Assembly (NCBI GenBank): GCA_973895155.1
Contig: OZ316895.1
Span: forward strand, 10,218,184-10,282,183
Direction of reading: 5' to 3'
DNA length: 64,000 nt
Origin: Marsupella aquatica
Taxonomy: Eukaryota > Plantae > Marchantiophyta
Shown: piece by piece, positions 9,401-59,100 of the stretch
Layout: each line of letters starts with the position of its first letter
Numbering within the stretch: the stretch's first letter is position 1
The notes under the pieces: model-generated
The model's database searches: none
What the model was told of the DNA's origin: nothing
Seen by the model: the letters and a program-made list of their open reading frames with translations, nothing else
Position numbers and translations under genes: made by a program

Positions 9401-10556
9401 TTCTCTTCAAAGGTAAAAATACATTTTTCTTGTGCAATTGTACATAGAAACGCAGATTGTCTATCTCGTAAAAGCTCAAGTACCTGCAAATTCGTCCTCC
9501 CACACGCCATAATTGTTCGTGAAAGGGAGGTCCGGCCCCACCAAACCGACCGATAAACCCTGTTTGGCTACCTCCGCCGCAAGTGAGAGGCCAGCAGGAC
9601 CGCATCCGATGACTATAAGGTCCAGGACTTTATCTGAAATAGGTTCAAGCTGCAAAACGTATAGAGATGAAGATGCCAGAGGACGATTAGAAGACTAGGT
9701 TACAGACGCTCCAGCCCACATACCACAGGACACCAACAAAAATTTCACACAGAGAGACAGCTTGAAATGTAGGATCATTCGCTGTCTCAGCTTCTCTGTG
9801 AATGTATAATCGCTGTGACGAAGGCCATACTCGAGCAAACGTGATTTGGAAACCAAATTGAGATGCTGTAATGAGATGCTGTAGGACAATCCAAAGGGAC
9901 GTTGCCTGTGATCGCAATGCTAGAACCAAGCTGCTCCGCAAGACAACACTTCACAGCACTGTAGTCAAATCGACCACATTTTCCGGAAAACGAAGAGGTG
10001 ATGAGGCCAAGGGGAAAACCTTCTGCCCGATCTTAGCCTGATCCATAGGCTTTCTGGCTTGTAATTGTACAAGATCAATAAATTCTCCTCCGGCTTTCAT
10101 GTAGTCAGCCTCGTCGACAAATTTCTCACGGGTCGGGACGACGGTGCTCGCAACCGCAATACTCTGCTGCCCCAAACATCTTCGACGTTGGGACCGACCC
10201 ACATGTGGTGTCTTAGTCCATACAGGCGTCAGCTGGTCTCGAAGCTTTCTTCTCTGATTATCTTGAGCTGAATATAACACCGATTTGAGACATAAAGACC
10301 AGGAAGTACAATTCCTTTTCCGGTTAGAACCATCAGGACATTGTGTGGAAGTGCTGCACACTCTGCTAGAGTCTTGTGAATGAGCAATCCTCCCATGCTT
10401 ACTAGAGGACCCTGTAATTGACAGCTCCTTCGTCTTCTTCTGAGCAGAGGATGAAGAAACACATTGCCTTTGAGATGCTACAGCTTTGCTTGCAGAAGAG
10501 GGATGAGGGGGAACATTTGCCGAGAATGCAATCTCCCAAGTGCAAACGCTGTTCAT
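6426..10556 (-). CDS. LCYE: Lycopene epsilon-cyclase, chloroplastic, 11 exons, ~630 aa
   Basis: Exons (minus) 10556-10020, 9649-9484, 9335-9200, 8975-8865, 8730-8628, 8346-8188, 7971-7864, 7721-7625, 7473-7354, 7255-7123 and 6648-6426 join in frame. Motifs: epsilon-type N-terminus FVDEADYMKAGG..VQLQARKPMD, FAD-binding DLIVIGCGPAGL, NNYGVWEDEF, VQTAYGIE, MMFMDYR, FLYAMP..FFEETCL, EEWSYIPVG, MVHPATGYSV and WKGFL. Start ATG 10556 is inferred. Confidence 0.95.
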
Positions 10557-12106
10557 GTTGAGAGAAGCCCGCGGTAGCAGACACAACTGAAACGCACAAT
10601 ACTTAAGGAAAAGCAACAAGACCCGCAATCACGGTCTCCAAGCCCACAAAACGCGGACTGCAGTTCTGCCTATCTCTATCCTGGCGTCTGGAATGTACAT
10701 AATTCTCCGCCCAGTAGCATTTCACCGTCCTAAACCAGAACTGTTGCCTCCAATTGTCCTCTGGTCCTTCCAGTACTGAAGGTTAGTAAACCGCAGCCGC
10801 TAAGGAAAGTGCCCAGATCCCCTACACCCTGCCCTGTCCAAGATGATGGACAAATCCTCCTATCCAAGCGAACCTGCACGCACCGGTACAAGCTCGTCAC
10901 AATCTGCACCGCTCCTGAAGTAATGCTGGTGCTTCGCCAAACCACCTGCTCACTCTTACTCCAGCAATTGGCTTGCACGTCGGGTCAAGATCCGAAAACA
11001 AAACAAAATTGAGACAGAAGAAGAGGGTATTGCAGTCTGCTCCTACTCACAAACAACGCTGGCGACAGCACGCCGCACAATGTGTCATCCAAATGCGATC
11101 CGAAATCATGCAACCTGAGCTGACGGAGGCTACGGAGGCAAAAAGAAGACGAGGCACAACAGCTACACAAGTACAAACCCATCTCAGGGACGAAAAGCGA
11201 GCTGGACTGAGCTGAACACAACAAGATCAATGGCCATAACACCCGACGCTCATTGTCACAGAGTGATTCGACATGATGGAGCTTGCCTACCTCAAACCTC
11301 AATGGGCGAGAGTCGAGCAGCTCACTGTACCGTCACTACCGACTCGGACGATTTCGCAATCAGCCCTCAGCAGAAGACCAACTGCATTTCGAGCTTCATG
11401 CCTCCATCCTCGAGAGAGGTAGGCACTGGACCTCCTCACGGAACGAGATTCCGTAGTCGAGTCATGTGGGGAGCGGCGGAGCGAGGCGAGCGCAGCACAG
11501 CACGGGGTGAGCTCAGCTATGGCGGTCCAAGAAGGATTGAAGAATCTGTACTGTACATGTATCGACGGAATAGGCAACCTCACGACTCACGAGACACGAG
11601 CAGTATCTCCTAATTAAGATGAAGCCTACGGTACGTTCTAACTACTCGTTACAGTAGTAATCGAAATAGAGAGTCCAATCTTTTTTATCTAAGTACATAA
11701 TCGGTCACTTCTTTTAGTTTAAGTTTTAGGGTTTTTCGCTCTTTGGTCTTCTTTGAGTTTTTTTTTGGGGTTTCTCACCTTCATTGGGCCTTTTTTTCTT
11801 TGTTTTTTTTTCTCTTTTACTAGCCTGATTACCTGTCTTTTGAATGTAAATTCATCTTTGCCTCCATCCCTCTTGTTTTTCACCTTCACTTCTATTTTGT
11901 CTTTATTGAGAGTCACTCTTAGTTCTGTCCTTGTTTAGAGTGGATGTCAGTTTGTTAATCTTTGATCCCATCCCTTTTTTATGGTACACCTTTACTTTTC
12001 AGTTTTGTCTTATTGAGAGTTGCTGTCTAGAGTCTTCACTCTAAACTGTAGCCCTTGAAAGTAACTTTGCATTGTGTTTTATTAGTAAGATTGCATCTAT
12101 TGTCTT

Positions 12107-15223: not shown

Positions 15224-18200
15224 TTACTCATCATCCTCCCCGCCTGCTTCAGGAGCTGACTCTAACCAGCGAAACCAGTTGAACGTCTCTTTTATAGCCT
15301 GCGGAAAACAAGAATATTCTTAGGTACACAACACAACCAAGTTTTCCCATCCATGTCCTTTTCTACCCAGGATGTCTGTACACCTTTACAAAAGAAAATA
15401 TAGTTTGGGTAATTCCCCGCATAAGATGCATCGAACAGAAGCCCCTCATCAAAGATGAAAGGCCCCTGTATAGTTACCACAAAATTTTCTTCCCCAAAGA
15501 AAATAAAAATCAACCCACCTTGTCCCTTCCTGGAGTGGAATCCTTAACATCATCTTTCCATTTTAGGAATACCTGTTCAGAAATTACCTGAAGATTACAA
15601 AGCTGTCAGTATTGGCTGTCTTCTGGATGATGCATCACCACACAAATATCACATACAAAACTGTCCATGATTGGAAGTAATCACCTGGCAGGTCAGAAAC
15701 CAGCATGAAAAACGTTTACAGCAAGGATAGCAAAAGGAGAAGCAGTTCACACTGGCAGTACATAAAAACTATAAAACTTACGTCTTCATCGTAGAGTATA
15801 GAAAAAAGAGCCTTTACTAGTCCCGGTGGGTGACCCAGATCATTGGCAAAAAGTTGCACTGCTACAATGTCTGCAAAGAATCAGGATGTCGGATGTTGTA
15901 GACGTTATCCCATGCAATTTGAAAAAATGTGTCAATGATACCACGGCATCCTACAGGGCAACCATGCCTTCAGCCTAACATATGTTAACTAATTCAAAAT
16001 GCGTTACCCCCAACATACGGGGTAGAACATATCTATGTTGTATTCAATTATGGTACAAACGATACGAACGAAGCCAAAGCCGGGGTGACTAGATATCACT
16101 CACAATGTCTCTGATTTGCTTCCGAAGCTCGTGGGTTTCTTGGAAGTAATCTCTTCAACAGCAAGGAAAATTTCTTGATCTTTCCTTCCAGAACCTTCTG
16201 CATTTCCAGCATAGTTCATAATCCAGAATGAGGATACAAAATTATTGCCTGACTAAAGAATTACATATTTCTAACGAACGAAGGAGCAAACAAAACTTAA
16301 AGATAACTACTGATCATAAAACTCACCTCCAACTCGTTTGTCACCGACTGTCCACCACCATCAAGCGGCACTGAATGTCTCAAGACTTCAGTCATGACCA
16401 AGCGGAAAAATGCAGCTTCAGAGCTGATTGACTTCGGAACATTTATCTACAAGAAAGTAATAAAATGAGTTGTCAGTTGGACAGCACGCTACAGAAAACA
16501 AGCTGGCCCACATGTATTACATTGATTGCATCAAGGGGTCATAATGTACCACCCAAATAAATCTGCGATGTCTGGCAGTGCCTGCATTGCAGAACATAAA
16601 TGACTCACCTAGCTGTCCCAAAATCCTAAATGGAGCAGAATGAAAGATAGTAGAAATAGATCACACCCATGAAAACAGTCAGAATTCCAATCCCATATTC
16701 ATCATTCACTCCGTTTCATGAGTGGAATCTAACTAAATCGAAGTGGAAAAACAGTAAATTCAGTGGGACCAAAATAGAAGACAGTAGAAATGTAATTCAT
16801 CACCTTAAAAATATTGAATTCCGACATCCATCTCTGGATTGAAAAACTCACCTCCACCCAGTCCAAAATCTGTGCAGCTGGCTCATCTCTGGCAATGGCC
16901 TCCCGTAAGTATTTTTCCGCCGGGATCATCTGAAAAGCACACTGCGGGTCAGCTTGTCCTACGTAATTGCTGTGCGTGAGAATACATTTATATGGTCAAG
17001 GAAGAATTCCCCGCTTCTTGAACCCGTACAACATATCACAGACTTCGATCATGGGCAAAATTAGGACGCAATTGGGGGGTGGCGTCCTGACGTGCAAAAA
17101 GAGGAGAAGATATAGTAAAAGTGCACAAACAAAAGATCCCACCAAAGTAACAATACCAGCATACTTACAGGATAGAGGCATTGTAAATTCTTCTTCTCCA
17201 AAAACATCTCAAACTTGCCCGCTTTCTTCTTGTCATCAGGTGAGAGGAAATGTTCCAGATTCAGTTTTGACTCTCTGTACAAGTCAACCATTGCAGCCTC
17301 CCCCTTTTCTCGTCTGATTATATCTAAAACAACCCCAAACACAGTTAAAGCATCACCCATCTCCAGCAAAGATCCAGGATCCATGCCACCTTCCTTCAAC
17401 AGCTTGCCAACATGGGCAACTGAAAAAATTCCAGCGACGACGAGTTTAGCAAACATCCCTCCGACATACTCAGGAGCTTTGGGGACATCCACTGTGGTAT
17501 CCTCTAACGTCGACAAAACCAATTCGAACCTGCGTACCATTGGTTGGTAAGATTAGAAAAGCGGTAAAGTGCCGAAAAACTTAGAAAACCTATGACACAA
17601 GCATCTCGTCGATGGTACAGAAGGAAATAAGAAAGGGGTAGGAAGCAACACCCACAAAAAGAGTTGTCTGTTTTGCCTTCCAGTCACTGAAAGAAAATAC
17701 TTACCCCTTACTCATCTGCTCTTGGGACACTAATGGAGGCTCTTTCTCCTTGCCAATATATATGAGCAGCTTCACTAGGAGCTCCCTTTCCGTATCTTTC
17801 TTATCCAAAGCCTCTGAGACCCAGACTGACACCATATTTGCATGAAACTTTGGATTCTTCAAATCCTCCACGCACTGGGCAGCCTCCTTAATATCTCGTA
17901 CACTACATGTAAAAGAAAACCGCTCATATTAGCATGAACCAATACATCGATTGAAGAATGAGGTAAAATCTAGACACGAAAAGACACAAAACTGAGATGA
18001 GAAATCCAGCAACCAACATGACATATCAAGAAATGACACCTAACGGCTAAGGGAAGCGAATAACAAAACTCTAGTTGGGATTTATACTACCAGTAAAGAG
18101 GCCACAAGGATAGAGGCACACCTGAAATATTCAGTAAGGGTTGAGATACTCTTCTTTTTCAGATCTTCTTCACTCAGCGGAAGCAAGGCTGCTGGAGCAG

Positions 18201-21200
18201 TCCGAGCTGCAACTGGAGTAGGAGGTGTACGTGGCCGCAGGGACGAACTTGGAGCAAGCGAGAGCACAGGTCTCTCAACAGGAGATCGATCAATGCCCCG
18301 CAAGTCCCTCCCAGAAATAGAAGGTCCCAGCCTCTCTGGTCCCAATGGCCTCTCAAGCAAGGGCCTGTCAGCAGAACCAAGAGGCCTCTCAGCACCGTGA
18401 ACTCTCATTGATAGCTCCTCTCTACCACCATAAGGACCTCTATCAGGGATCATGCCCCCAAATCCTGGCATTGAGCCCATTCCGGGGCGTCTGACATCAC
18501 CACCCATCATAGGCGGCACTTCGGCCAATGCACTTCGTCCTGGAACTATTGGTCGCATAGCCATGGCCCTACCAAGGCTACCCTGTGGACCCAGTGTAAG
18601 AGAACCTTCATCAGAAGATCTCTGCGACGGCATTGGCATTGGCCTACTGTCCGGCATCAACAGACGATCTTCCATTCGCACGTCTTGACCAAATCCACCA
18701 CGCACAGGACCAGGAGGCGGTTGTGCACCACGCATTCCCCCCATCCCCATGCCTCCCATTTGTCCTCCTGAAGAATACATTGGAGACGGTGGACCGCGCA
18801 TACCAAAGTCGTTTCCTGGTCGTCGTCCTCCAGGGCCAATACCACCACGTTGTTGAGGGCGATCCCTACTTGACGCAGCAGCCTGTTGCCGCTCCTGGAC
18901 GGCATCTCTATGTACTTCGTCAATCTTCTTTGGTCCCTCAACTTTCCTCCTCTCTGTCCAGCCATTCCTCCGTAAATCTATGACATCCTTCAGCATGAAT
19001 CGCAGTCTGGAAGAGAGCTTCATGTTTTCACTCAACTTCTCCATTCTTTTAAAGTAAGCATCTATATGCTCTTTGGCCTTCGGATGATCGATAATACGAC
19101 CGATTGTACTCATCAGCTTGCACAAGGCCTCCACATCTTCTTCATCTGGATTTTGATACTCACCAAGCAACTTCTTAATACACTCATGCATGATCCGTTC
19201 TGTGAGCATATTCTTTTTGTACAATTCACCAATGAACCTTATATTGCCTAGCATGCGTCTCCTAGCGCTAGTCCTCTTCTCCTCCCTCTCTTCAGCGGTG
19301 AGCTTAACCTCTCCATCTTCTTCTACTTTCTCTGCCTCTTCTTGCTCCCTCTCTCCCCGTTCAAATTCCTCCTGACATTTGTTTAGCAACACACGCTTGA
19401 AAGTGATTTTCTCCTCATCCTCTACGAACTCTGGCAGCTCCACGGCTAGCTGAACACAAAACCTGGCGTACATTTCACAAAACGTAGGTTCTGTGAGCGC
19501 TTTATCGAATATCTGGGAAATAACACCAGTGAGTGTGGTTGCCGAGTCGATGTTGACCTCCTTCACCTGTGCAAAGAGCTTATCGAAATTCTGTGGGGTC
19601 AGCTTATTCAGAATACCCTTGATCAACCTCTGCTTTAATTGCTCCTCATCAGATATCGTCCCAACTTGGTATCTGTTTTCGGTCTTGTGAATAGCAGGCA
19701 AAGGTGTTCGTGGTGAAGGTATAAGTCCCTTTTGCCCTACAGGAGCACGCTGCCAACGATCAGCATCAACACCCACCATGTTCCTTCCTGGCCCTGGCGG
19801 CATCATCATAGGAAGTAGAGGACCACCAGGAAGTATACCACCCATTCCAGGTGGCATTATTCCCGGGCCGCCCATTCCTGGTCGCATACCAAGGGGCATG
19901 CGCATCAGCCCAGTATTACCCTGCCCTGGTCTGAAACCGCCAGGAGGTCCTCCCATCCCCATGTCCATCCGACCATCAGGTGGACCACGCCCAGGTGATG
20001 AAATGGAGGCGTTCCTGGTCCATCGATCTTCCTCAGCACCTACATTGCTGTTGCGACGTTCGAGGCGTGGGCCGCCACTTGACTGTCGATCTAAATTCCT
20101 GCCAGGACTAGGAAGAGGATCTGTGAAACCGGCACCTAACTGGGGATTCAAAAGAATATCGGCTATATCTGCTCTAATCTCAAATTGTAGAGGCAGATCT
20201 CTGTGCAAGTCCTTCTGGGACATCAAATAGTCCTTTGTGTACTTCTTGACTCCCAAGTCACTTCCGCTCGGAACCTCCCCAGGGCCCACACTTACCATGG
20301 GAGGAGCCGTTGAGGGCACGGGGGGCATTTTTGGCGTCGGAAGCTCTGCAGCATCCTCCCAGTCATCCAATTCCTTGAGGACTGGCGTTTCCATATTCGA
20401 CAGGGGGTCCTTCTTGGTATCTGTGCTAGGGTTCGCAGACCCAGGTGCCTCCGCTCTCTTCACCTCATCCAGTTTCTTTTCTTCAGGAGCCTTGTAAGCG
20501 GTAAACAAGTCCCCTGTCGACCCTTGAGCATCTGCTTTTGCAAAAATTTCCTTCTTCTTTTTCTTTTTGCTTCCCGCTTGTTTCACTTCAGGAACAGATG
20601 TAATCAAGTTTTCTGTGTCGACATTAGGATTTGCCCCACTACTGTCCGCATTAGGATCTGACCCACCAATGCTATCAGCATTAGGATTTGACCCACCAAT
20701 ACTGTCGGCATTAGGATTTGACCCACTACTGTCGGCATTGGGATTTGACACGCCAATACTGCTGTTCTCTGGAATTTCTTTCGGGTTATGCTCCTCGACA
20801 GCTCCCCCGTTATCATTCTGCAATTCAGAAATAGTTGTAGGTGCAGAGCCTCTATCATCACTGAACTTTCCATTTGGTAGCACTTCAACTGAACTTGCAA
20901 CAGTCTCCTCGCTAGGAGATATCTCTGGAGGAGAAGGTTGATTAACACACTCAACAAGGCTTTCTACAGAACTTTCCACATTCTCCTGTACCACACCTTC
21001 AGATTCCACAGAGTTGGCAAAAGACTTGTCCTCAAGATTATCAGTTATACTGTCCGACGCTCCCTCCGACTCAATAGTGCGGGTTGACTCTGGGACCGCA
21101 ACAGCAGCATCGGCTACAGAATTTTCAGTTTCCATTGCCTTTGATAGAGAAATGTCTTCAGTTCCCAACTCTTCTTCAATTTCATCAACTGCAGGCGACG

Positions 21201-23711
21201 ACAACGGGGCGCTGGTGGTAGTCAGTTCTACTCTAGGTTCATCAGAAATTCCACTCGTTTCACTGACAGGCTCCTTCTGTCGAACTACTTCCTCCTCCGC
21301 TGAAGGTGTTTCATAAGGTGTGAAATCCTTGGTACTTACTATAGTATCTTTCCCAAGAGACACAGCATTTTCCACCGAACTGTCTACTGCAACTTGCTCT
21401 TGGAGAGCTCCTCTCCCGTTGGCCAAAGAGTCCATTGCAACATCCAAGTTTTTGGAGGCCACTCTGTCCAGAGAAGAAACTTCACCTAGACTTGTCACAA
21501 CTTCAGGAGCTGAGGTGTCACTGTCTGCTTTCAACAAATCCTCATCAAAGGAGGAACTTCCAGACAACGGCGGCTGCTTCGGAGGAACAATAGCACTGTT
21601 CATGGGGGAATCATTCACTTCCAAATCCATCCATTCTGCGCTTCCAGTACCACTGACAATCTCCTCGGTAACAGGCGACTTCTCCCGTACATCATCACCA
21701 GCCCGAGTAGGATTACTCAGCACGGTGGGAGCTGGGGTCAACTTAACCCCTGGAACTTCCTTGGTTGATGAGTCAATAGTTTGTCCAACAAGTGGCTCCT
21801 TCACCGCGGGAACTGACGAAAGGGCCCTCGAGGATGAATTCAGCTTAGAAGATACTCCCCCTTTAGCAATTGATGAGTCGATCGTAACAGGATCTTTTCC
21901 TTCAAAGCTCTTAGCAGTAGATAGTGCTTTACCTGAAACCTGTTTTGAGGGCTTCCGTACGACTTCTTCAACTTCAGAAGACAATATTGACGTTGAGGAA
22001 ACTTCAGAATTTTGCGGAGAAAGTCCTGACAATTTCCCACTTCCACGTTTCTCCAAGTCTCCAGATTTGGATGTGCCCTTGGAGTCTTCAGACCTACCAA
22101 ATGAATTTGTTCTCTTTATCGGACCTCCTGGTTGCACAACAGGGTGAGGAAGCTTGGGTGAGCCAGACTGAACAGCGGCACCACTTGCAGCGGATATCGG
22201 TGGTTGCGAGTTCTCTGCTCCAACTGCAGTTGAAGGGATTGAGGCCTCACCTTTTTTGTCTACATCACTTTCCACAGAAACTGCTACAGTTGGGACAGCT
22301 TGTTGTTGGTGCTGCTGCTTGTGTTGCTTTTGCTCTTTCTTGCTGATCTTCCTAGAATTCTCCCTGCTAATTGTTGGTTTTACAGTCTCAATCTTTGGCT
22401 TATCTCCACTGACAGGAGGCACACCGGAAGGTACTGCAGCGACTTTGGGACTATTAGTACTGGTGGCCAAAGATGTGCTGGTCACCTTTGACGGAGGTAC
22501 CAATACGCTGGGCTTTGGTGTCACAGCAATAGAACCAGTTGTCTTACTGCCTTGATCTCTTCTGGCTGATGAACCTTCAGAGGCAGTAACAGGTACACTC
22601 TGATGGGGCACAACTGGGTCCGCACTCGGAGCAGCCCCATTTGCAGCAGACGACGGGATTTGGGGCGAAGATACGCTGGTTGCGGGAGTCTCTTCTGAAG
22701 GAATAGATTTTGCTGAACTCGACGCCTCAACATCGCCAAATTTTAAAACTACCCCCGAAGTAGTTGTGGGGGTTGGAGGAGCCGAGGAGGTCGTGGCAGA
22801 AGCGCCTGGCACTGAACTAGGAATTCGCCCATTCGAGGCAGGAGTCTGGCCACCGGATGCTTCCAATATTAGAGGAGCAGCTGGTCTTCCTGACAGAACA
22901 GCTGGATTAGATTGAATGGGATGAGCAGGGCCACCAGATGTACTGACAACCAAAGGTGTTGCAGCTGAATTGTTCACATCTATTCCTGCCTGACCTGTTG
23001 GACCCCCACCTATTCCACCAGATGGAACGCCTTTTGAGGCAGGAGGATTCGAAGCTCCTGCAACATTTATGTGCCGGTGTGGCTGTTGGCCATAAGGGTA
23101 CCGGGATGGATTCCCAGGAGGACCACCAGGGGCTGGAACACTTTTCGGAGGTACTACTTGTTGATAGTTGAAGGGGCCCGCGTGCGTATAAGAATAATAA
23201 TTGACACTAGCGTGATGAGGACCACCGCCATAGTTCACTTGTCTGCTTTGAGGTCCGTTGCTAGAAACCCTAACAGAAGAAGCAGCTGCCGAAGTTGGAG
23301 CACCTACATCCATAAAAGGTTCTTTCTTTGCCTTGGCATCAAATCTCACCTCCTCATGAGTAGTTGGGTCCACAATCTTTATAGCTCTGCTTGGCTGCGG
23401 TTGAATAAACTGGCCGGTGTTAGGGGGTCCATATTGTGTACCAGGTGGAAGCTGGCCTCCCATGGGTCCACCCATTGGCGGACCTAGTGGATGTGCCATT
23501 TGAGGTGACACTTGACCCGCTAAGGGACCGCCCATCTGCTGAGCGATGATCTGTGGTCCGTGGGGAGACATCATTGACTGAGGGTATTTCATTCCCTGAC
23601 TTAAACTTTGCACCCCTAATGCTTGCTGAGGTAATGACTGTTGGGGTAATGCCTGCTGTGTCAGAACCTGTTGCTGTTGCTGTTGCTGTTGCTGCGGCTG
23701 CGGCTGCAACT

Positions 23712-23755
<44 letters not shown>

Positions 23756-26700
23756 TGCTGTGCGTGAGCTTGTGCCTGCTGGGCATGTTGAGCCTGCGCT
23801 TGAGCCTGAGCTTGGGCCTGAGCCAGCTGATATTGTTGGTAGTGCTGGGATGGAACTGGAGCCGTTGCAGGCATGTGCATTGGAGCCTGAGAATGTTGTG
23901 GAGCATGCCCCTGTCTTTGCGGGAGCTGCAGAGGTTGCTGTGTCAATCCATGAGGCTGTCCGGCTGATGCAGGCTGAAGGACAGGCGTTCCAGCCCCGGT
24001 TATTAACCCCTGGGAAGTAGCATTTTGAGTTGCCTGCAAAACAGGATGCGACTGCTCGGTTGCATTTCCAACAGCGCCAGTGACCTGTACCAAACAAAGG
24101 TAACTCGAATTTAAGCGAGAAAGGCTACAAGCTCCAAATGAGAAGGAAATGTCAACTCTAAGCAAAGCTATAGCTATTGCCAGCAGCTTCCACAAACTGT
24201 CAGGCAACGAATAAGAGTCTCACTAGACAACAAGGACTAAGCCTTCTTACCAGCACTTGCTGTTGCCCGGATGGAACCGTCGGCACTTTCTTAGGAACGA
24301 CAGCACGAGATGCTTCAAACCGTGCCTGCATTGATCCAGAAACAAGACACGGAACAAACTTCATTACATTGCTCACCAAAGGAGAGTGCACAAATAGGAA
24401 GTCTACTGCTTATCGATATAGAGTGCACAAATAAACATCTGTTATCCATTGCTAATATCCGTCCAGGTACCTTATACAAAACAGGCTCGCAACCCTAACA
24501 GAACTTTCCACAACCAGGAAGAGAGACGAACAAAAAAGAATGACAGTAGACGTACCTGCTCACGTTTCTGCTCGTCAAGATTGGGTGGAGCAGAACTAGT
24601 TCTGGCTGGAATCTGTGGAGGTAAAACGATACTTGCTTAAAAAATTTCTAACTTCATATATTCTGCGAGGCATGAGACGGAAGAAAACAACGGCAGTCAA
24701 AAAACGGCGCCAAAAGGGACCTATAGAATACCTGCATCCCTGGCACTGGCGTCATGAAACCTGGACTAATGCTCCCAAACTGGAACGAGAACGAAGGTTG
24801 CGGTGAAGCTCGAACATTGTCACCTGATGAAGCTACCGCCAAACAACAGACAAACACTGAGCTGTAATCACTGTATGTTGGCTCACAAGGTCAGTCAGCA
24901 ACTTAAACACGATAACGAGCTAAGATTGCCTCCAAATTAGATCCGGCAGGAGAGAATGATGCCCACGAAATTCATCAAAATCTGTCCTACAGTGGTCAGC
25001 AGACCAAAACGGGTCAAATGACTAGCATTCACCGGCTTCTGTTCCCTGACAAGAAAGATAAGAATGGCAATGGACTTGTATCACGAAAAAGTAACATACC
25101 AGTCGGCACAGGTGACACAGGCTCGGGGACAGCAGCGTTAGCAGCAGTTACTGCTGGAGCTGGCGGTTTCGCAGCAGCACTGGAAACAACAGGATTTGAG
25201 GGCTGTCTCTGAGAGGGTACCGCTGCACCACCGGTGCAAACAGCTCTAGATCCAACAAACGAATTCGAAGATTGAATAGCTGGAGTAGCCTGCTTCAACT
25301 CTGTCTTCTGACCAGTATGCGTTGGCGTGTGCGAATTAACATCTGCGGGGCCCACAGCTTGCCGAACGGCCGAAGCTGTCAAAAGAGCAACAATTCAGAA
25401 GTTAGATCAGGAAAATAGAAGAATTCCGAAGGATAGTAATCCGCCCCGAGCACCTGTGCATACGGTACTGCAGTTGATACGTTCAGATATCAGAAAACGA
25501 AGTACAAAGCAATTTGCCACACAAGCCAACCTGGCTGCTGTTGTTGGGGTTGCTGAGTTTGATACTGTGCTCCTGTATGATGGTGGTTCCTATAATTTCC
25601 TCCATGATCTGGGAACCCACCACTTTGAGCACTTCTGCCTAGTCCAGCAGGTCCATTGGCGCGCTTTCCACTGAAGAAAGCCACAAGCGATTCAATGAGA
25701 TAAGGCAAACCAGTTGGAAAATAGAAACTAGGAGTTCCTTGGTAGGGCAAAGATCGTACTGGATTGCACAAAAAACAGATCTCTCGTACGAGATATTCTG
25801 TCAAGTCTCCTTGGTAAACAACAATCCAGCGCTACCTGAGAGCAATGACCTGATGTAACGTTACTCCCTCTGTAGGTTTAAACACGCGAACGTCATGCTT
25901 TCTGGATAGCCCGATAATAAAGACTGACGTAGCTACGGTTTTCTCAAGGTCTTCGATGATCAAGTGCTGGCTTCAGAGAGGAAGAGGCCCTGAACTATGG
26001 ACAATACTTCACCATGTCGAGGACGCCTCTCAGTGAATTAGTTATAGAACGTCCGAAAATTACAAATGGGTGGGGGCGTGAACAATTTATAGCGCTTCCG
26101 AACATACGCCAATCGCAGTCCAACAGAACAATACAAAAACAGGCCCTCACGAGAACCCTAAAGCTCTGCTTCGTCAGAGATGTCTAGGTCATGGAGGAAA
26201 CTCCACTGAGGCACAATTGAGTACACTTGACTCAGAGGGGCATCTACTGACTTGCCGAACCTCGTGCAACGACTTCAAAGATAAAGTGCAGCTCCAAGAC
26301 GGATGCAAGAATTAAGGAATGCACGGCAAAAATAAGATCAGGCTGATTTGACCTAAACAGGACGGCGTTACCCGTCTCAGCTCAGCAAATGAACGAGTTT
26401 GGATTGCACATTATACCTTTGAGTTTATAACAACTTTTAAGATTGGAAACACAGGGGGCACAATGGTAGAAATAATAACAGCGAAGGAACGACCGCGTAT
26501 GTATCAGAACTTCAGCTGTCAACACAACTGAATCGGCTATTGATGAAAAGAGAGCTTACCCACGATTGGTGGAAGAACCCGGCGTTGTAGGGCGCCCAGC
26601 AGTACCCGGGGTTGTAGGGCGCCCAGGAGTACCCGGCGTTGTAGGGCGTGCAGCAGAGAAAGACTGAGAATTCGTGAGAGACGCCCCAGAGGCAGGGGGG

Positions 26701-50557: not shown

Positions 50558-51690
50558 CCCAGGCTTTTCATGCGATCCTGAAAGGCTGCCGTTGCTAATC
50601 TCCATGCCGTTGCTAATCTCCATGTATACCTCTTTGCATAAAGTACAGGAATGCCGAGTAGTTCTTTTCTTTCTACAGTACTTGATCTTTTCTCATGCAC
50701 AGTACCGGGTGCTTCTGCGTAGGCACATGGAAGGAACAAAATTGGACCCACAAACGCAATCCCCATCGTCCCTGACGTAACAGGGGTAATGTTGACACAA
50801 CGGATGCCATGATCCCACTTCCATCCACATATAGATTGAACGTAATAAAAACCAGGACAACAGGTTCGTTTTCGGGGAGGCTCCGTGAGAAGGCTGTGGA
50901 AGAGGGCAAGGTTGATAAATCAGAATTGGACATGCGAAATGGATGAAGCACTGAAGTCATAGTTAGAGAAAGTAGGCAGCTTGAAATATCGATACGAATG
51001 CCAAGGTCCTAGATTTCACAACAGAAATGACACTTGTCGTACCTGTGTTTTGAGCCTTGCCCCTGCCCCAGGTTCTTCATGGGAAATCCTGAAAGGCTAC
51101 CGTTGCTCATCTCCTTGTGTAACCATGTAGCATGTAGCGCACAGTACAGGAGTGCAGAGTGGTCCTTGCGTCTTCAAGTACTTGATCTCACTTGCATCCA
51201 ATAAGAGATCGACGGCCTCCTACAGTACTTGTTCTGCTAAAAATCTCATGCGAGGAGTGCTTCTACGTGGGCATATGAAAGGAACAAAAGTGAACCAAGA
51301 ACCGCAATTCCCATCGTCGCCGAGGTGACAGGGGTAATGTTGACGCAGCGAATGGTAAGATCTCCCTTCCATCCACTACGAGATTGAACGTAAGAAAACC
51401 AACGCAGCAGGGTTTGTTTCCAAGGAGGCTCCTTGGGAGGGCTGTGGACGAGGGCAACGTTTACAAACCAGGATTTAAATATGCGAAATGGTTGAGAGAG
51501 GTAGAGCAGGCACACTTCGAAAAGAAGGTAGCTTAAAATATCGATAGGACGCCCAAGTCCTAGATTTCACAGGCAACATTTACAAACCAGGATTTAAATA
51601 TGCGAAATGGTTGAAAGAGGTAGCAGGCAGATTTCCAAAAGAAGGTAGCTTAAAATATCGATAGGACGCCCAAGTCCTAGATTTCACGAC
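50558..51690. repeat. Diverged ~510-550-bp tandem duplication with a nested ~120-bp near-perfect duplication
   Basis: Copy 1 is ~50558-51040 and copy 2 is ~51066-51570; both share atcctgaaaggct, acaggggtaatgttgac and gtcctagatttca. Segment 51452-51570 repeats at 51572-51687. Confidence 0.85.
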
Positions 51691-53071
51691 AGAAAAGACA
51701 CTGGTCCCGCTTACTTACAGTAGGCATACCGAATACAAAATGAGAGGTGCTTGATTGGATTGCAAGAACAGTATGCTGAATATAAAGATTTCAGTACACC
51801 GTCCACCTTCAAGATGGTACACTTCGTTAATACAATGACCAAGGTTACTTGTTGCCCTGCAAGAGCGACAGATGTTCACAAGAACGCTTTGTCCATTAGT
51901 TCAGCTGCACTTCAACGTAAATATGCATATTAGGGAAATGCCCAGTTCCAGCAAGTTGAGCGGAAGCGGCAGATATCTTACAGCCTCTCCAAGTCGGCCA
52001 TCTCATAGCGCAGACTGGAAAGTTGAACTTTAACCCAAAGAGCTAGATTCACCAAAATTGAGCAATCCTAGAGTGCGCGTAGATATGAGGCTAAGTATGG
52101 TATTCCTCCCACTGGCACAGCGCGTGGAATCCCGAAGTGACCATTGGCTGGAGAGGCACCAAACTTACATGACCTATTCTCCAAATTGGTGTGGACTGAG
52201 TTCATTGAACAATATACACTTACCACATTCGACAAAGCAAGTCACATTATCCCAAGAATTTATCGATAGGTCAGTTTCGCGCTTTCAGCGTAACTGAAGT
52301 TTAGCTAAAGGCTTTGGACAGTGAAGTCACACTCTGCTCGCTGAAGTTATGCTGAAGCCTTTCAGACTTTCCACTTCAACTTACTATCTTAAGCTTGACT
52401 GGCAGACGACCCAAAGCTCCGAATGCTAGAACATTCACTACCACTTTAACCGAGACAATGAAAGAGTCAACCGTATATAACAGGCCAGCCCCGATCATGA
52501 ATTGACTAGACGATGATGCTTGCTTCAACCATTTATACTGAAAAGGAGAAACAAATCGTTCACTAAGTAGGGCGCCGTCTGATTCATTAAGGCTAACAAC
52601 ACCGAATTCACTTGAAATAAACTAGGGCACTGATGCTCTCTGCCCATCGCTTGATTCCTAACTTCCTCCCTCCTACAACCGAGATATACGAACCACTGGC
52701 GCAGTAACACACATTGAAGTTCTGACTTGCAGTCTACGAATTGACCATCTTGGTTAGAGCTTAAAGTGCACTTCCAAGTTTCATCAGAAATGTTCAGTGT
52801 GGAAAAACTTTGGCTTCGGCCAGTGTGTTCTCTGAGTTGAAAATTGAATTTGACCTCTGCATTAGGGCAGTAGAAGCTGCCAGTCTCAAACCTGCTTTTC
52901 GCCGTGACAACAGGCTATCATTGACTCGTGAAATTTCCCAGTGTGTCGTCATCCAAATGATTGAAGGAATGAACATTTGCAGCTCCAAACCCATCCTTGC
53001 AACCAGTATCTCTGCAAACAACCTGCGACAATCCGAAATTTTGCTGTCCTCAGCACGACTCGTCCTTGCTT

Positions 53072-53607
53072 TTAAGCTGTAGCTGCAGCCTCTGATGGGG
53101 TTCGTGCCACTATCGAAAGAGCATGCAGTCCCGCCTTCAGTTCTTCCTGCAGAATATGGTAAACTGATCGATGTCGTTGCAGGTGGTTTTGACCTTCGAA
53201 TGCAGAGGAGACAATTCTCACACTGCAAGCCATGGAAACGGTTTGTCAAAAGTTGACCTTTATCCATACCTTAATTTTCTCAAGTTCCACATAACCCACG
53301 TGACGACAACCTCGTCCGAGAAGGACCAGACAACAAGCCAGAGGAGCTTTAATACGTCAACTCGGAACGGCTCCGGTCCACGGAAATTGACAGAAAACCA
53401 ACTAGACGTAGCTGCAGTTCTAAATTAACTGCGCATAGATAACTTGTTCAGATCAAGAATAAACACTGACTTGAAGTGGGTTTTGCCAGCTCCAAGTTGA
53501 ACTCCAGCAACGTGCTCGACCGAAACATCCTCAACCTCCAAGTTGACGGGATTCAGTGCTTTGGTAAGCTGCTTGGAGACAAGAAAATCCGTTTGTGAGG
53601 AAAAATG
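53072..53607 (-). other. BolA domain (BolA1/SUFE1-C-terminal type), encoded by two exons
   Basis: Hallmark BolA motifs EDVSxxH, THFN, IVSxxFEG, RHRxVY and GLHALSIxAxTP. A phase-2 intron spans 53470-53223. Confidence 0.92.
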
Positions 53608-55313
53608 CTGCGACATCAAGACACCATTTGAAAGGCCCAGTTCGACAAAACAATTATCCTCATTATGGGGATCACACAATCATGTACAATCCCTAACATA
53701 TAATACAAACACTGCAACACCAGTATACTTCACACGAATACATAAAAAGACCTGCGCTATTCTAGTTGATTGTGAATCCAATGGTGCCACCAGACACAAG
53801 ACCAACGGATTCATGAACTTCACGGCATGCGAGACAGGGGTTGTGAGTAAAGGAAGGCATAGAATAAGTGGCATGGCTAAGACCATCAAGAAAGGAAAAT
53901 GTGTGCCAACAAGCGCAGCGTAACAATAGGTGTGGGAGTTTTCAATCAACTGTGAGAACAGGGGAATAAGGGAAAAGCACATGAAAGACGGACTCCAGGA
54001 TCAGCTGCACCAAAGAAAAAATCAATCGAGTGCACATAGCATACTCAAATGTGGGTACGAGAAAAACGCCCACCCTCGTGTGACGATCGGGATAAGAATT
54101 GCGACATACAGGCAATTATCCCACACTTAGAACGACCTCAACTACCTTTTGATGGATGACGTCCCGCCCAGGAAAAGCCGTCACAGCTGGAGAGAGACAC
54201 CACCTACACTGGAATCCCACAGAACGGATCGACTAGCCATGTTAGAGCCTACAACAACAGATGCAAGAGCTTGTGAAGGGAGAAAAGAAGATAAACAGAG
54301 GCCAGAAATAAGTACATAGGACAAAGAAAGAGAAAAGGCTGATGTATGCAAACCTGGTCGGAGTCCAAGGTGGACGGAGACAAACGGGGTCGTTTCCTCG
54401 TGGTGTTGGAGATAAGCTCTCGGAGCATTTGCATGCGCTCTACCTCCAGCTTGGCCATGGCATTCACAAAATTGCTGAAGCTGGCGGCGAGATCTTTCAC
54501 GGGGCTGCGAACAGACACATTACGTCTCCTCTTGCGAGTGGACTTCCCTGAAACCTCAGGTACATTTTGCATGCATCGAGTGCCACAACCGCCCGTCGAG
54601 CCCTGCTTCCGATCTTTGCCAGGAGGAGTTTCCATGAAGCTGCTCGCCCTCTCACTGGAGATTTGGCTCTCTGTCAGAGTTCTCATTTTGCTATCATCCC
54701 CGATGCCTAAGGGAACGATGATCCCCAGATGATTGCCTCCTACTCCTCCTAGTAGCCCTCCTCCGCCTCCCTGCCCTTCGCCCTCACACTCTTTATCACC
54801 ATTGGAGATGGGGCACTCGAGTCCCGTCGCTCCTAAACCTAATGCAAGGGCAGCAGCAGCTCCTCCTTCGGCCTCTTCGATCAATCCTCCGGCCTGCTTC
54901 GGAGCCTTCCCAATGATGTCATGAAGGCGCTGGAACCAGGGCCAATCGCTAGCCACCTCGCCCGCCTCGTTCTTCTTCTCCTTCTCCAGCTTGTACCGCT
55001 TCTTGAGATTTTCAATCTTGTTCTTACACTGCAGGAAGGTTTTCCGCTCGCCTTGCCACTGATACCGCTCGTCCATGTTGGTGGCTACTTGCTCCCAGTC
55101 CTTCACCCTCAGGTTGCCGAAACTCACTCCTCGCCACTTCTGCTCGTAGAGCTCTAGCAGCAATTCGACCGCTCTATCGGTCCACTCGTTGCCATCCTTT
55201 TTCTTTTCACTCTTCACCACCCCTTCCTTCATGCTTCCTCCTTCCTTTCCTAAACCCATCGCTGCTCCACCCGACGGAGTCATCGGTAGCGCTACTCTCC
55301 CTCCTCCCCCCAT
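53072..55313 (-). CDS. Trihelix (Myb/SANT-like) transcription factor fused to a C-terminal BolA domain, 3 exons, ~415 aa
   Basis: Exon 1 (55313-54354) has WTDRAVELLLELYEQKW..LRVKDWEQVA..KTFLQCKNKIENLKKRYK..WPWFQRL and the coiled coil LAASFSNFVNAMAKLEVERMQML, ending CAG|GT in phase 0. Exon 2 (53607-53471, phase-0 acceptor) and exon 3 (53222-53072) give LTKALNPVNLEVEDVSVEH..THFNVRIVSSAFEG..RHRSVY..EELKAGLHALSIVARTP. Confidence 0.8.
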
Positions 55314-56118
55314 TCCCTACACCTCCCTAGCCTTCCCTTCTTCGTTCTCCTCTCCTCTCCTCTCTTCTCCTCTCCTCTTCGCCCGCTCGCCGCTCGCGGA
55401 ATTTGGATCCCCTCCTCCTCCACCTCCCTTCTTGCAGGAGAAATTAACTTCCTCGGCTTCTTTGGACTCTTCTTCGAGTCGAATTCCCGTCCTCTATCCT
55501 TTCTCCCTGCTACCCTCTCTCTAATAAAAATACAAATCACTCTCTGTTCCTTGACCCTCCTCCACTTTTCCCTACAAAACTCGTCCTCCCTCAACCCCTT
55601 CCCTTCCTTCCTCTTCGGATCTTGCTGCCTCACCCTCTCCAACCTCCCACTCTCCCCGCGCCCTACTACTTCCACAAGGATCAGGATCGGGCAGGCGGGG
55701 AATGGGATCCCCACCACGACACAGTCACTAGTAGTACTGGGTGGCACAACACTACTGCCACGAGAAAAATGTAAGAGAGGAGGAAGAGAAGGAGGGCGAG
55801 CAAAAACAGGAAGATGCACGCTCACGGGACGAGTATGGAGACGATCACCACCACTGCCCGAGTTCTTTCGCGGCTCTGTTTGTTCTTTCTACGCCCCACT
55901 CCTCCTGTTGGGGTCCCGATTGTTCGTTCGTTCCCAGATCCTTCCCAAATCGGAGCGGAATGTGGAGGGGAGAAGGGAACACGGGGAGGAGGGGCAGACA
56001 CAGAGAGAAACAGGAGACAGAGACAGAGAAAGGGAGGAAACAAAAACAACGTCCTGTAGCGATGAGACGGTCATCATGATGCCCCACTTTCCTTTCTTTC
56101 CTTCTTTCTTTTCTTTCG

Positions 56119-56161: not shown

Positions 56162-59100
56162 TCGTTACACCACTGCGATCGTTCGTACAAGAACAGTACC
56201 ACTGTATAGCGGCCTGGATAAATACAGTACGTTTTCTCCCATCACATACGATATGATACGGTACTGCGGCTCTTCGTGTGTACCGCTCCTCGGCGTCTCT
56301 CGCACAGTCGCGGCGCGCGGCCAGCGAGCCAGGCTTTGGTCGGCCCCGGCCGGGCCCCACTTTCCGGGGCAGACCGCAGTTAGTGTGGTGCGGCGGTACT
56401 GCCTCGGCGGTCGGGCAATGCTTGCGTCCCTTGCACCACGGTGACGCCCCGTCTGTGTCCCAGTCTCATCTGGTCCTTTGCGTTCCTTAGTTATTATTAG
56501 TTTTAAAGGGCCACTCGATGGGACGCTACTATTTCATGAGTCCTTGAATCGATGCTCATAGACAAGAAGTAGAAAATAGAATTCATATGGAAGCAAACTA
56601 CGGAGTTAGTCATAGCAACGCCATGAATTTATATACACTGCCAACAAGCTCGCTTTCTCATCTGGTCCTTATTTTAAAAAGAAAGCCGTTTTATTGCAAA
56701 CTACTCAAAAAAACACTGGACCTACCACAGGTCAGTGACTTGGGAGTGCTCTGGTTACAAGAAGACCGAACAACTAGTCCTCACGCCCATCCTCCCTCAC
56801 CCTCCTCCTCGGTTACCATGCAAAGTCCTTCACCCTTGCTCATGGTATCCGCCCCTGCATTGTATTTCCCTTTATATTCTTGAATATGGTAATAAAATTT
56901 TGGAACTGTATCCTCAGATATAGGTTTGCTGAGTCAGTAGTTCAATAAGCCCAGATTGGATCCTTGTACTATAAGTAGCAAGTTGTCACTTGCAGGCATC
57001 CCATTGGATCCCATTTGGGCATTTGGAAGCATTATTTTGCTTAAACACTTGTTTGAAATGAGAGGCACTTCAGGAGGAGGTATAGAATGAGAAAGCCACC
57101 ATTTGACAAATTCATGATGCAAATTGCACTAAAGATGACTTTTTCATCCAAAAAGAGAGCAAGGGTTCTTGAGTTGTCTTCAATCCAGAACATCAGCTTT
57201 TTGTAAAATTGGGAGTTTCAATTAATGTCTTGAATGATGATAAGCATTTGCTCTTAGGTCTGAAGTCACAATAACTTAGGAATATTCCTAAGTTTGGTGC
57301 CCAAAACCCCAAAATTTTATATAATTTTCAAAATTGAATTAAAACACCCCTAATGTTCTTTAACAAAAAAATTTGAAGTCTTCTATGTTGAGCATTGATG
57401 ACATTCACAGCAGCATGCCCATAATCATCCAACGATCAAGTAATTGATACAAAGAGAAATGTGGTTCATCTCCACGTGAGGCTACGTCCACGAAAACACA
57501 TAAAAGCTAAACTGCACTCAAGGCGACCGGCCATACCAAGCTTCCACAACACAAGCTTTCACTATTTCTCAACTGGCTTCGTAACAATAAGCCTAAGTTC
57601 TCACTATCCAAGCAAATATCGTTTGGGTTATAGTGTGTGTGCACACCATGACTAACCTAGCCTAGTCTGCGACTAAGGTTAGCCCTAACTGCGGTACAAT
57701 CATAACTCTAGACCTAAGAGTTAATCCTAACATTCTGAACTGTCCAATTGAAATAAAACCTAACTTATTTGTGCCCCAGGGTACCTCAATTCTAAAGCTT
57801 CCAAAGACCCCAATGTTTGACATGATGCTCAGATGGACCACTAAAGCCTGGATTTGACCATCTTCAAACATTTTAGATAGGACCTTTCCCTTTGTATATG
57901 CTCACATATTTGGGTTTCAACAAATGTATGGTTCATACATTGTACATGCAAACATGAACACCTTATACCTCTGGTTAGGTATAGTATCTTTTTCCTACAT
58001 TCTCAGTGACAGTAACCTCAGGGTGAGATATATAAATTTCAACATGTTTGAAGGTTGACTATACCTTTAGAATGCAGATTTGTGTCGCCTCATTCACTTG
58101 AAGTAGTGCCCAATAATTCCTAAGAAAACTATTATTTCACCCAAACAAAGGGATTAATTTTATGAACCTTACTTTGTAACACATGAAACAAATGTTGACC
58201 CCTGTTAATTGGCTAGGACTCACACAAGGAGTTTTTAAATTTCACTTTCACTAAACTTACATCAAGGATAAGTCTGCTAATTTGACACTCTTTGCAATGT
58301 AAGCTCTCATTGCCTGTAGAAAAGAAAGGTTTGCAGTGCCTTCCTAGTTTTGACATTCTTAGTATATTTTAGCATGGTGTCATTGAAAGATGTCTTTACC
58401 AACAAAATTACACTATCGATCATATCTAGTCCTGACTAATAAATAGTGTTGACCTAATTTACACTCGGGAACACTAATATTGCCACTAACTTGGGGTGTA
58501 TTGGAAAGTTCACCCAATGTACAGTAGGGTTACATTTACAAATGATGCAAATTTGTGCAAATTTGTGGTAATTGTGTGTAATTGAGACTAATGTGTTGGG
58601 GATACACTCAGGGTAAGACTATTGCAAGGATACTCTATGCTTTACTACAGTTCATTTCACGAAATATATATTAAGATTCCAAAACCCTCTCACTTCTGGT
58701 GATTAGATCATGTTGGTTGTCTGGTTGCATCACCACCGGCCATATAAAAGGAGAAGAGTCCAAGACAAGGAGAAGAGTCCAAGACTTCTCCCTTTTTTCA
58801 CATTCTTGTACTCTGCCGTGAAACTTTGCTCCAATTTCAAGAAAGTACTAAAAGTGGTGAAACCTAGTGGATCCAGGTTTTGACATGGACAGTGGTGCTT
58901 TACCCAGCACAGTTCATGGATTCCAAGAGGCTTGCACTCTGGTGATTAGATCATATTAGTTGTCCAGTTTCATTAAATTGCACAGTTCATAATGCTCTTC
59001 CGTAACTAAAATGATGTTAGTTGTCCAATTTCCTTAAACTGCACAGTTCATAATGCTCTTCTTTAACTTAAAGACTTTCCTGACTTTTCTCTTTGTATAT

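What the first reader, a model, noticed from the sequence alone, without database searches (positions are those of the whole stretch)
53072..55313. Trihelix transcription factor fused in frame to a BolA (Fe-S/glutaredoxin partner) domain
Seen: the trihelix exon ends LDSDQ|GT in phase 0. The next strong acceptor (tgtcgcag|CAT, 53607) is also phase 0 and opens a complete two-exon BolA domain with no transit peptide of its own. The BolA retains the loop His (EH), the THF His, FEG/RHRxVY and the invariant LHAL His. Established: BolA proteins form [2Fe-2S]-bridged complexes with CGFS monothiol glutaredoxins; in yeast, Bol2(Fra2)-Grx3/4 passes the iron signal to Aft1/2 in trans; the familiar plant BolA fusion is plastid SUFE1. 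Inference: this gene puts the sensor and the DNA-binding domain in one chain, with an NLS-like KRRR, so it could be a one-component iron/Fe-S/redox-sensing transcription factor. I do not know of a description of this architecture.
Basis: partly seen in the sequence, partly recalled or inferred. Interest (0 to 1): 0.88.

Follow-up and report, generated by a model that had tools for sequence, protein, structure and literature searches.

The report
Liverwort trihelix factor fused to BolA
Liverworts from both major classes carry one gene that joins a trihelix DNA-binding domain to a BolA domain (a family that partners iron-sulfur glutaredoxins) through a small exon with an invariant cysteine pair, so it is likely a transcription factor with a built-in redox or metal switch, which nobody has tested.

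Summary
Spliced contigs from two related organisms join the trihelix exon to BolA through a 63-nt micro-exon (54208-54146) and acceptor 53568, not 53607. This gives a 423-aa frame. The same two-domain protein is annotated in Calypogeia fissa, Marchantia polymorpha and two Riccia. M. paleacea has the same exons, read from a second AG 5 nt downstream. None of 148 other top hits from 1.84 billion representatives has both domains. The fused BolA forms one clade of the organellar SUFE1/BOLA1 type, not the cytosolic BOLA2/Fra2 type. Its usual cluster ligands are eroded: HxxH loop 0 of 6 (61 of 69 free BolAs), THF His 4 of 6, invariant His 5 of 6. A CxxC and a His on the micro-exon are invariant instead. 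Best reading (0.4): a nuclear SIP1-type factor whose BolA docks a glutaredoxin while the CxxC is the switch. Function is untested. Ten literature searches found no description, though public gene models already hold the architecture.

The parts
54354..55313 (-). Exon 1 coding part (residues 1-320): trihelix domain, linker, two basic motifs, long helix
   Evidence: covered by spliced contigs
54906..55190 (-). Trihelix (Myb/SANT-like) DNA-binding domain, residues 42-136, W-W-I pattern of the SIP1 clade
   Evidence: PF13837 E 6.9e-16; 82 of 95 residues invariant in 4 liverworts; pattern from PMC6747514 passages
54522..54536 (-). Basic motif RKRRR (residues 260-264), predicted nuclear localisation signal
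   Evidence: KRRR in 5 of 5 orthologues; function inferred
54399..54503 (-). Long amphipathic helix (residues 271-305), likely coiled coil
   Evidence: helix 268-302 in the model of P0001, pLDDT 39-51; 28 of 35 invariant in 4 liverworts
54384..54398 (-). Second basic motif RKRPR (residues 306-310), 11 residues before the CxxC
   Evidence: present in 5 of 5 orthologues
54209..54353 (-). Intron 1, 145 nt, GT..AG
   Evidence: joint in X1; X2 contig carries the micro-exon's first 34 letters at the same place; ends
54146..54208 (-).
   Evidence: joints in X1 and X2; 11-16 of 21 residues identical in 4 orthologues
54197..54208 (-). CRWC motif, invariant in all full-length fused proteins
   Evidence: 5 of 5 database proteins plus the window; 0 of 69 non-fused BolAs have CxxC within 30 residues upstream
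54204..54205 (-). Second AG, 5 nt downstream of the used acceptor; its use would shift the frame, drop CxxC and BolA, and stop after 31 residues, 60 nt before the last junction
   Evidence: the M. paleacea gene model P0002 uses the equivalent site (31 of 32 positions frame-compatible); not seen in X1 or X2 contigs
53569..54145 (-).
   Evidence: joint in X1 and X2
53471..53568 (-). Exon 3, 98 nt: BolA helix 1, strand 1, shortened loop (H360), H372
53223..53470 (-). Intron 3, 248 nt, GT..AG
   Evidence: joint in X1 and X2
53072..53222 (-). Exon 4 coding part: FEG, RHR, invariant H407 (53125-53123), stop
   Evidence: PF01722 E 2e-16
52497..53071 (-). Likely 3' untranslated region
   Evidence: X1 record 1 runs to 52497 and X2 record 7 to 52543 in one piece with exon 4; contigs cannot show the true end

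Best explanation
This is one four-exon liverwort gene for a 423-residue trihelix protein ending in a CxxC plus a BolA domain, likely a nuclear transcription factor whose BolA part is predicted to dock a monothiol glutaredoxin while the cysteine pair would act as a redox or metal switch on DNA binding or nuclear location. Shown: exon structure in relatives, open frame, both domains, one origin, conservation across leafy and thalloid liverworts, erosion of the loop histidines, and invariance of C321, C324 and H339. Inferred from family knowledge: nuclear location, DNA binding, dimerisation through the long helix, and glutaredoxin docking on the retained FxG/RHR/strand-3 face. Inferred and weakest: that C321/C324, possibly with H339 or H407, bind a metal or a handed-over [2Fe-2S] cluster or form a disulfide, in the way cysteines of yeast Aft1/2 receive a cluster from Fra2-Grx3/4.
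For: Spliced contigs join all four exons in two organisms from two studies; X2 record 7 holds 54988-52543 in one 1506-nt contig. The frame is 423 aa without a stop and 390 of 423 identical to C. fissa P0001. Both Pfam domains pass their cut-offs in P0001 and P0007. The fused BolA rows form one starred clade, 100/96. The BolA part keeps 49 of 76 residues invariant in 4 liverworts, against 32 of 69 in the acidic linker, so it is under constraint. RH[RKQ] is kept in 6 of 6 and the invariant His in 5 of 6; the exception, P0004, has an unrelated tail after helix 3. CRWC is invariant in 6 of 6 while the rest of the micro-exon keeps 7 of 17. H339 is in 6 of 6 fused and 2 of 69 free BolAs. Glutaredoxin docking on strands 2-3 and helix 3, and cluster transfer to Aft1/2, are described in PMC6558291 (parts 2-3 read).
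Against: No functional data exist. The CRWC codons overlap a second splice acceptor that also exists in M. paleacea, so the first three residues may be held by a splice signal rather than by protein function. The structure model gives the CxxC segment pLDDT under 50 and pTM 0.26 overall, so no geometry supports a metal site. The fused domain changes faster than SUFE1's BolA over a similar species pair (69 of 88 against 82 of 91 identical). Four cysteines in only four genera-level samples is a small set, and C243/C247 in the linker are equally invariant, so invariance alone does not single out the CxxC. Arabidopsis bola2 and grxs17 mutants have mild phenotypes (PMC6558291).
Confidence: 0.4

Rival explanations
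1. The BolA domain was recruited as a plain protein-contact or accessory nucleic-acid-binding module and senses neither iron nor redox state; the cysteine motif is kept partly by splicing.
For: The HxxH loop is lost in 6 of 6 and E[TSM]HF in 6 of 6, and both Riccia proteins lack any loop His. The FxG/RHR putative DNA-binding face (PMC6558291 figure legend) is kept in 6 of 6. The nearest trihelix relatives carry other C-terminal add-ons: AA_kinase in 8 of 15 scanned and MazG-like in 1. The second AG overlaps the Cys-Arg codons.
Against: The invariant His is kept in 5 of 6. The second Cys and H339 lie outside the splice signal and are invariant.
Confidence: 0.3
2. One reading: the fused BolA bridges a [2Fe-2S] cluster with a CGFS glutaredoxin through its own two histidines, as free BolA_H proteins do, and this controls the factor.
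For: The window protein has H372 and H407 at the 35-residue spacing of human BOLA1 His67/His102 (PMC7538681 passage) and H360 at the 47-residue spacing of Arabidopsis BOLA1 His97/His144 (PMC6558291; counted on the alignment). M. polymorpha keeps all three. The fold matches SUFE1 BolA.
Against: H360 is kept in 2 of 6 and H372 in 4 of 6, against 61 of 69 (HxxH) and 67 of 69 (THF) in free BolAs. The loop is 13 residues against 15 in four plant SUFE1-type rows. The domain is not of the BOLA2/Fra2 type.
Confidence: 0.2
3. The main regulation is at the RNA level: choice between two acceptors 5 nt apart switches between the full fusion and a short, likely decay-prone trihelix-only message, and the BolA tail matters little.
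For: The second AG exists in the window and in M. paleacea, whose gene model uses it (31 of 32 positions compatible; shuffles mean 7.8, max 16 of 2000). The early stop lies 60 nt before the last junction.
Against: No X1 or X2 contig listed uses the second AG, though contigs drop rare forms. The M. paleacea model may be a prediction error. The BolA part is constrained at protein level.
Confidence: 0.07
4. Two separate genes: a trihelix gene and a BolA gene that starts at the ATG at 53616.
For: An in-frame ATG exists at 53616. Low-depth intron-2 contigs exist in X1 (53666-53994, depth 8) and X2 (53726-53815, depth 7).
Against: Contigs splice across that ATG in both organisms. Residues it would add match no orthologue (0 of 13). 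BolA helix 1 begins on the upstream micro-exon. Fused models exist in four named species.
Confidence: 0.03

Closest known systems
SIP1-clade trihelix factors (ASIL1/ASIL2, FIP2, ASR3-like)
   Same: One N-terminal PF13837 domain with the W-W-I pattern, a fourth helix, and a long C-terminal helix. The Atlas's nearest clusters are ASIL2/FIP2/ASR3-like at 0.83-0.85, leads only.
   Different: It carries a C-terminal CxxC plus BolA. The liverwort domain sits on a long branch (2.62) with no close non-liverwort relative among the 48 rows.
Plant SUFE1 (SufE-BolA fusion) and BOLA1 (BolA_H type)
   Same: Closest solved relatives by sequence (4PUI 86 bits, 4PUG 75 bits) and fold. FxG, RHR and invariant His are kept. 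The window's domain is 46 of 84 identical to liverwort SUFE1-type BolA.
   Different: No SufE domain, a DNA-binding domain in front instead of an organellar leader, a loop two residues shorter without HxxH, and an added CxxC. Liverworts keep a separate SUFE1 (P0035). Which paralogue was the donor is unresolved: AU p 0.445, 0.377 and 0.209 for three placements.
Yeast Fra2(Bol2)-Grx3/4-Aft1/2 and fission yeast Fra2-Grx4-Fep1
   Same: A BolA and a glutaredoxin control a transcription factor through a [2Fe-2S] cluster (PMC6558291); this is what the gene may work like.
   Different: Those BolAs are separate proteins of the loop-cysteine type; here the domain is fused, of the loop-histidine lineage (BOLA2 34 bits), and the DNA-binding domain is unrelated.
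Trihelix-amino-acid-kinase (UMP kinase-like) fusions
   Same: A trihelix domain of the same broad type with a C-terminal domain taken from a metabolic family (PF13837 + PF00696 in 8 of 15 scanned); these are the top-scoring non-liverwort trihelix domains.
   Different: Different add-on domain. The Arabidopsis name At3g10030 for this type is recalled; one search listed papers naming it but I did not read them.

Membership tests
SIP1-clade trihelix | Single N-terminal Myb/SANT-like trihelix domain | tested here: met
   PF13837 58.9 bits over cut-off 27, residues 42-133, one stretch
SIP1-clade trihelix | W-W-I/V pattern before the three helices (PMC6747514 passage) | tested here: met
   W, W, I read from the domain rows; rule
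SIP1-clade trihelix | Fourth amphipathic helix (F/Y)(F/Y)xx(L/I/M)xx(L/I/M) | tested here: met
   W-F-x-x-L-x-x-I, first position W instead of F/Y; helix 123-133 in the model
SIP1-clade trihelix | Groups with named SIP1 members in a tree | tested here: inconclusive
   long branch, unresolved base, no named ASIL row in the 48; Atlas scores under 0.9
SIP1-clade trihelix | Sequence-specific DNA binding in the nucleus | not testable with these tools
   two basic motifs present; no assay
BolA_H (SUFE1/BOLA1 type) | BolA domain and fold | tested here: met
   PF01722 85 and 95 bits in P0001 and P0007; helix-strand-strand-helix-strand-helix order; best fold match 4PUI, E 4.7e-07
BolA_H (SUFE1/BOLA1 type) | Invariant His at the start of strand 3 | tested here: met
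   H407; 5 of 6 fused rows
BolA_H (SUFE1/BOLA1 type) | FxG turn and RHR motif | tested here: met
   6 of 6 fused rows
BolA_H (SUFE1/BOLA1 type) | Second His ligand in the [H/C] loop | tested here: inconclusive
   present in the window (H360, H372) but HxxH 0 of 6, H360 2 of 6, H372 4 of 6, none in Riccia; the two papers read place the ligand at different histidines
BolA_H (SUFE1/BOLA1 type) | [2Fe-2S]-bridged heterodimer with a CGFS glutaredoxin | not testable with these tools
   no assay; not modelled
BolA_C (BOLA2/Fra2) | Cysteine in the strand 1-strand 2 loop | tested here: not met
   no Cys after residue 324; BOLA2 scores 34 bits against 86 for SUFE1
SUFE1 | SufE domain (PF02657) before the BolA domain | tested here: not met
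   P0001 and P0007 match only PF13837 and PF01722

The most novel reading that the evidence does not exclude
Liverworts built a one-component iron-sulfur/redox-sensing transcription factor: an organellar BolA was moved to the nucleus on a trihelix protein, shed its loop histidines, and gained a CxxC micro-exon that takes a cluster from a docked glutaredoxin, with a tandem splice acceptor able to delete the sensor. It would be the first plant case of the BolA-glutaredoxin route to gene control known from fungi.
Probability: 0.2. Interest if true: 0.9.

Novelty: new variant of a known kind. Interest (0 to 1): 0.66.

Why it matters
Whether glutaredoxin-BOLA pairs report iron status to transcription in plants is an open question; it is the title of the review PMC6558291, and the 2026 paper PMC13736203 still treats only organellar BOLA1/4 (passages). 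This gene puts a BolA on a DNA-binding protein in Marchantia polymorpha, a genetic model, so one knockout and a few point mutants test the question directly. Even if it senses nothing, it is a conserved, liverwort-restricted domain fusion with a corrected exon structure and a changed ligand set.

Tried and rejected
No whole genome is held for the window, so paralogues and synteny could not be checked. No run on record as RNA was listed ('no RNA holder listed'). Two metagenome scans found no related locus, so P0003's DNA and any orthologous intron sequence were not seen. A homodimer prediction of P0001 residues 262-420 with a 2Fe-2S cluster gave no answer, score 0.02. The Atlas gave no usable hit for the C-terminal part. 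Earlier-findings look-ups were empty. Lack of contig cover at 53569-53665 fits depth arithmetic (57.1 and 5.2 expected, 57.1 and 5.23 seen) but is not used alone. X1 record 2 (54354->53570, letters between unknown) cannot be read as micro-exon skipping or as a diverged micro-exon; this stays open. P0002 was first taken as a BolA-less orthologue and rejected. The same frame test explains neither P0003's tail (best 11 of 28) nor P0004's tail (best 8 of 18). The BolA donor paralogue is unresolved. Supplements of PMC11132968 could not be read and those of PMC6174852 hold no BolA or PF01722, so the Marchantia gene name was not found and any work under an MpTRIHELIX number may be missed.

Full report
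Setting. The window is spliced eukaryotic DNA. The gene's closest named relative is from the leafy liverwort Calypogeia fissa (90% identity over exon 1). No whole genome is held.

Observation. Exon 1 (55313-54354, minus strand) is 960 nt, ends in phase 0 before GT and holds PF13837 (E 6.9e-16). BolA-coding pieces lie downstream. I laid 4 of the 6 listed runs. Contigs of X1 and X2 (organisms A and B, two studies, RNA by the tool's guess) skip introns; DNA runs X3 and X5 show no listed joint. The joints are 54354->54208 (X1; X2 carries 34 diverged letters of the same micro-exon there), 54146->53568 (both) and 53471->53222 (both). X2 record 7 holds pieces from 54988 to 52543 in one 1506-nt contig. 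The four-exon model is 1272 nt and 423 aa, all introns GT..AG (145, 577, 248 nt), and 390 of 423 identical to P0001. One more diverged X1 contig joins 54354 to 53570 with unknown letters between and cannot be interpreted. All RNA evidence is from relatives and from contigs, which show presence, not level or ends.

Distribution. The exon 1 search returned 5 proteins; 3 carry PF13837 + PF01722: C. fissa, Riccia fluitans and R. sorocarpa. Cluster look-up added a second C. fissa copy and the M. polymorpha protein P0007 (409 aa), which NCBI sources name both as a BolA family regulator and as a Myb/SANT-like protein. M. paleacea P0002 seemed to lack BolA, but its 31-residue tail is the micro-exon and exon 3 read from a second AG 5 nt downstream: 31 of 32 positions are frame-compatible with P0007 at offset 5, against a shuffle mean of 7.8 and a maximum of 16 in 2000. 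The window has the same second AG and would give a tail of the same length, stopping 60 nt before the last junction. A profile search of 1.84 billion representatives gave 2 hits at E <= 1e-30 (P0005, P0003), then a drop from 527 to 115 bits. Of the 155 proteins then held, 5 have both domains, all liverwort; 0 of the 148 new hits do. Only the best 150 of 3532 hits were seen and the library is clustered at 50%, so 'liverwort-restricted' is likely, not proven. Moss, fern and lycophyte proteins are in the collection. P0003 (unnamed JGI record) stops matching at the exon 1 end, so its status is unknown. Calypogeia and Marchantia/Riccia belong to the two large liverwort classes, which split several hundred million years ago (recalled).

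The BolA part. By sequence it is closest to the SUFE1 BolA domain (86 bits) and BOLA1 (75), far from BOLA2 (34). The AlphaFold model of P0001 is poor overall (pLDDT 45, pTM 0.26, 5 sequences) but has the BolA element order at pLDDT 70-85 in its second half, and Foldseek ranks 4PUI first. In a tree of 75 domains (15 cluster-member rows left out) the 6 fused rows form one starred clade, 100/96, next to but outside the starred group of land-plant SUFE1/BOLA1 rows. On 30 rows, AU tests reject none of three donors: liverwort SUFE1 p 0.445, stand-alone BOLA1 group p 0.377, three further SufE fusions p 0.209. Liverworts keep a separate SUFE1 (P0035), so the fusion came from a duplicate.

Ligands. PMC7538681 (passages) says BolA gives the invariant His plus a His or Cys from the loop, and names His67/His102 for human BOLA1. 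PMC6558291 (parts 2 and 3 of 6) names His97/His144 for Arabidopsis BOLA1. By spacing these are the THF His and the second His of HAGH (counted on the alignment). The window protein has H360, H372 and H407. Across 6 fused rows HxxH is 0 of 6 (61 of 69 free), H360 2 of 6, THF His 4 of 6 (67 of 69 free) and the invariant His 5 of 6; both Riccia proteins have no loop His. The loop is 13 residues against 15. In contrast CRWC is invariant in 6 of 6, no free BolA of 69 has a CxxC within 30 residues upstream, and H339 is in 6 of 6 against 2 of 69. Against over-reading this: the Cys-Arg codons overlap the second AG, C243/C247 are invariant too, and the CxxC segment has pLDDT under 50.

The trihelix part. 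It has the W-W-I pattern that PMC6747514 (passages) gives for SIP1, a fourth helix, two basic motifs and a long helix, and is 82 of 95 invariant in 4 liverworts. It sits on a long branch; the best-scoring outside domains often carry a C-terminal amino-acid-kinase domain (8 of 15 scanned, chosen by me from the top hits) or a MazG-like one (1 of 15). Trihelix factors with add-on domains are therefore not unique. PMC12142463 (passages) notes that trihelix binding motifs are diverse, so no target can be predicted.

Mechanism. I commit at 0.4 to a nuclear factor whose BolA face docks a monothiol glutaredoxin and whose CxxC, 11 residues after the second basic motif, is the redox or metal switch. Structure of the gene and conservation are shown; everything about sensing is inferred.

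Novelty. The architecture is already in automated public gene models. Ten full-text searches listed no paper describing it; I saw most only as listings. Where I checked passages, 'bola' was a surname (10.64898/2026.08.24.746769), a species name (PMC12513842) or a bacterial YciI-BolA fusion (PMC7641849), and PMC13736203 has no mention of Marchantia or bryophytes. The library lacks most subscription papers; the supplement of PMC11132968 could not be read and bioRxiv supplements are closed, so a table naming this gene may exist unseen. Verdict: a real, conserved, apparently undescribed variant of known parts; interest 0.66.

Noticed in passing
window 54204-54205 (minus): A second splice acceptor 5 nt inside the micro-exon, also present in M. 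paleacea, would remove CxxC and BolA and give an early stop 60 nt before the last junction.
   Followed up: partly
window, residues 243 and 247 of exon 1 (near 54587-54573, minus): A second cysteine pair (CxxxC) in the low-confidence linker is invariant in the window and 4 orthologues; P0003 keeps only the first.
   Followed up: no
P0004 (Riccia fluitans), last 24 residues: The tail after BolA helix 3 is unrelated to the other orthologues and lacks the invariant His; likely a gene-model error, not explained by a frame shift.
   Followed up: partly
P0001 and P0006: Calypogeia fissa has two copies, 98% identical, on different contigs.
   Followed up: no
P0176, P0174, P0022, P0028, P0015, P0055, P0061, P0064; P0033: Trihelix domains fused to an amino-acid-kinase domain (8 proteins) or to a MazG-like domain (P0033) among the top hits.
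   Followed up: no
window 17061-24219 (minus): An eIF4G-like gene: MIF4G domain E 2.5e-53 in a 2045-codon open frame, weak MA3 match downstream.
   Followed up: partly
window 9951-10628 (minus): An open frame that resembles the start of plant lycopene epsilon cyclase (resemblance recalled); no Pfam match for this piece.
   Followed up: no
window 56800-56844: Many loose ends from other contigs in both DNA runs, so a short genomic repeat lies about 1.5 kb upstream of the start codon.
   Followed up: no
window 51500-51690: Two near-identical copies of a roughly 55-base stretch about 120 bases apart, seen by eye; probably part of a repeat element.
   Followed up: no
run X1 on window 52674-55453: X1 holds two sets of contigs for this gene, one close and one more diverged, so a mixed sample, a polyploid or a paralogue.
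   Followed up: no
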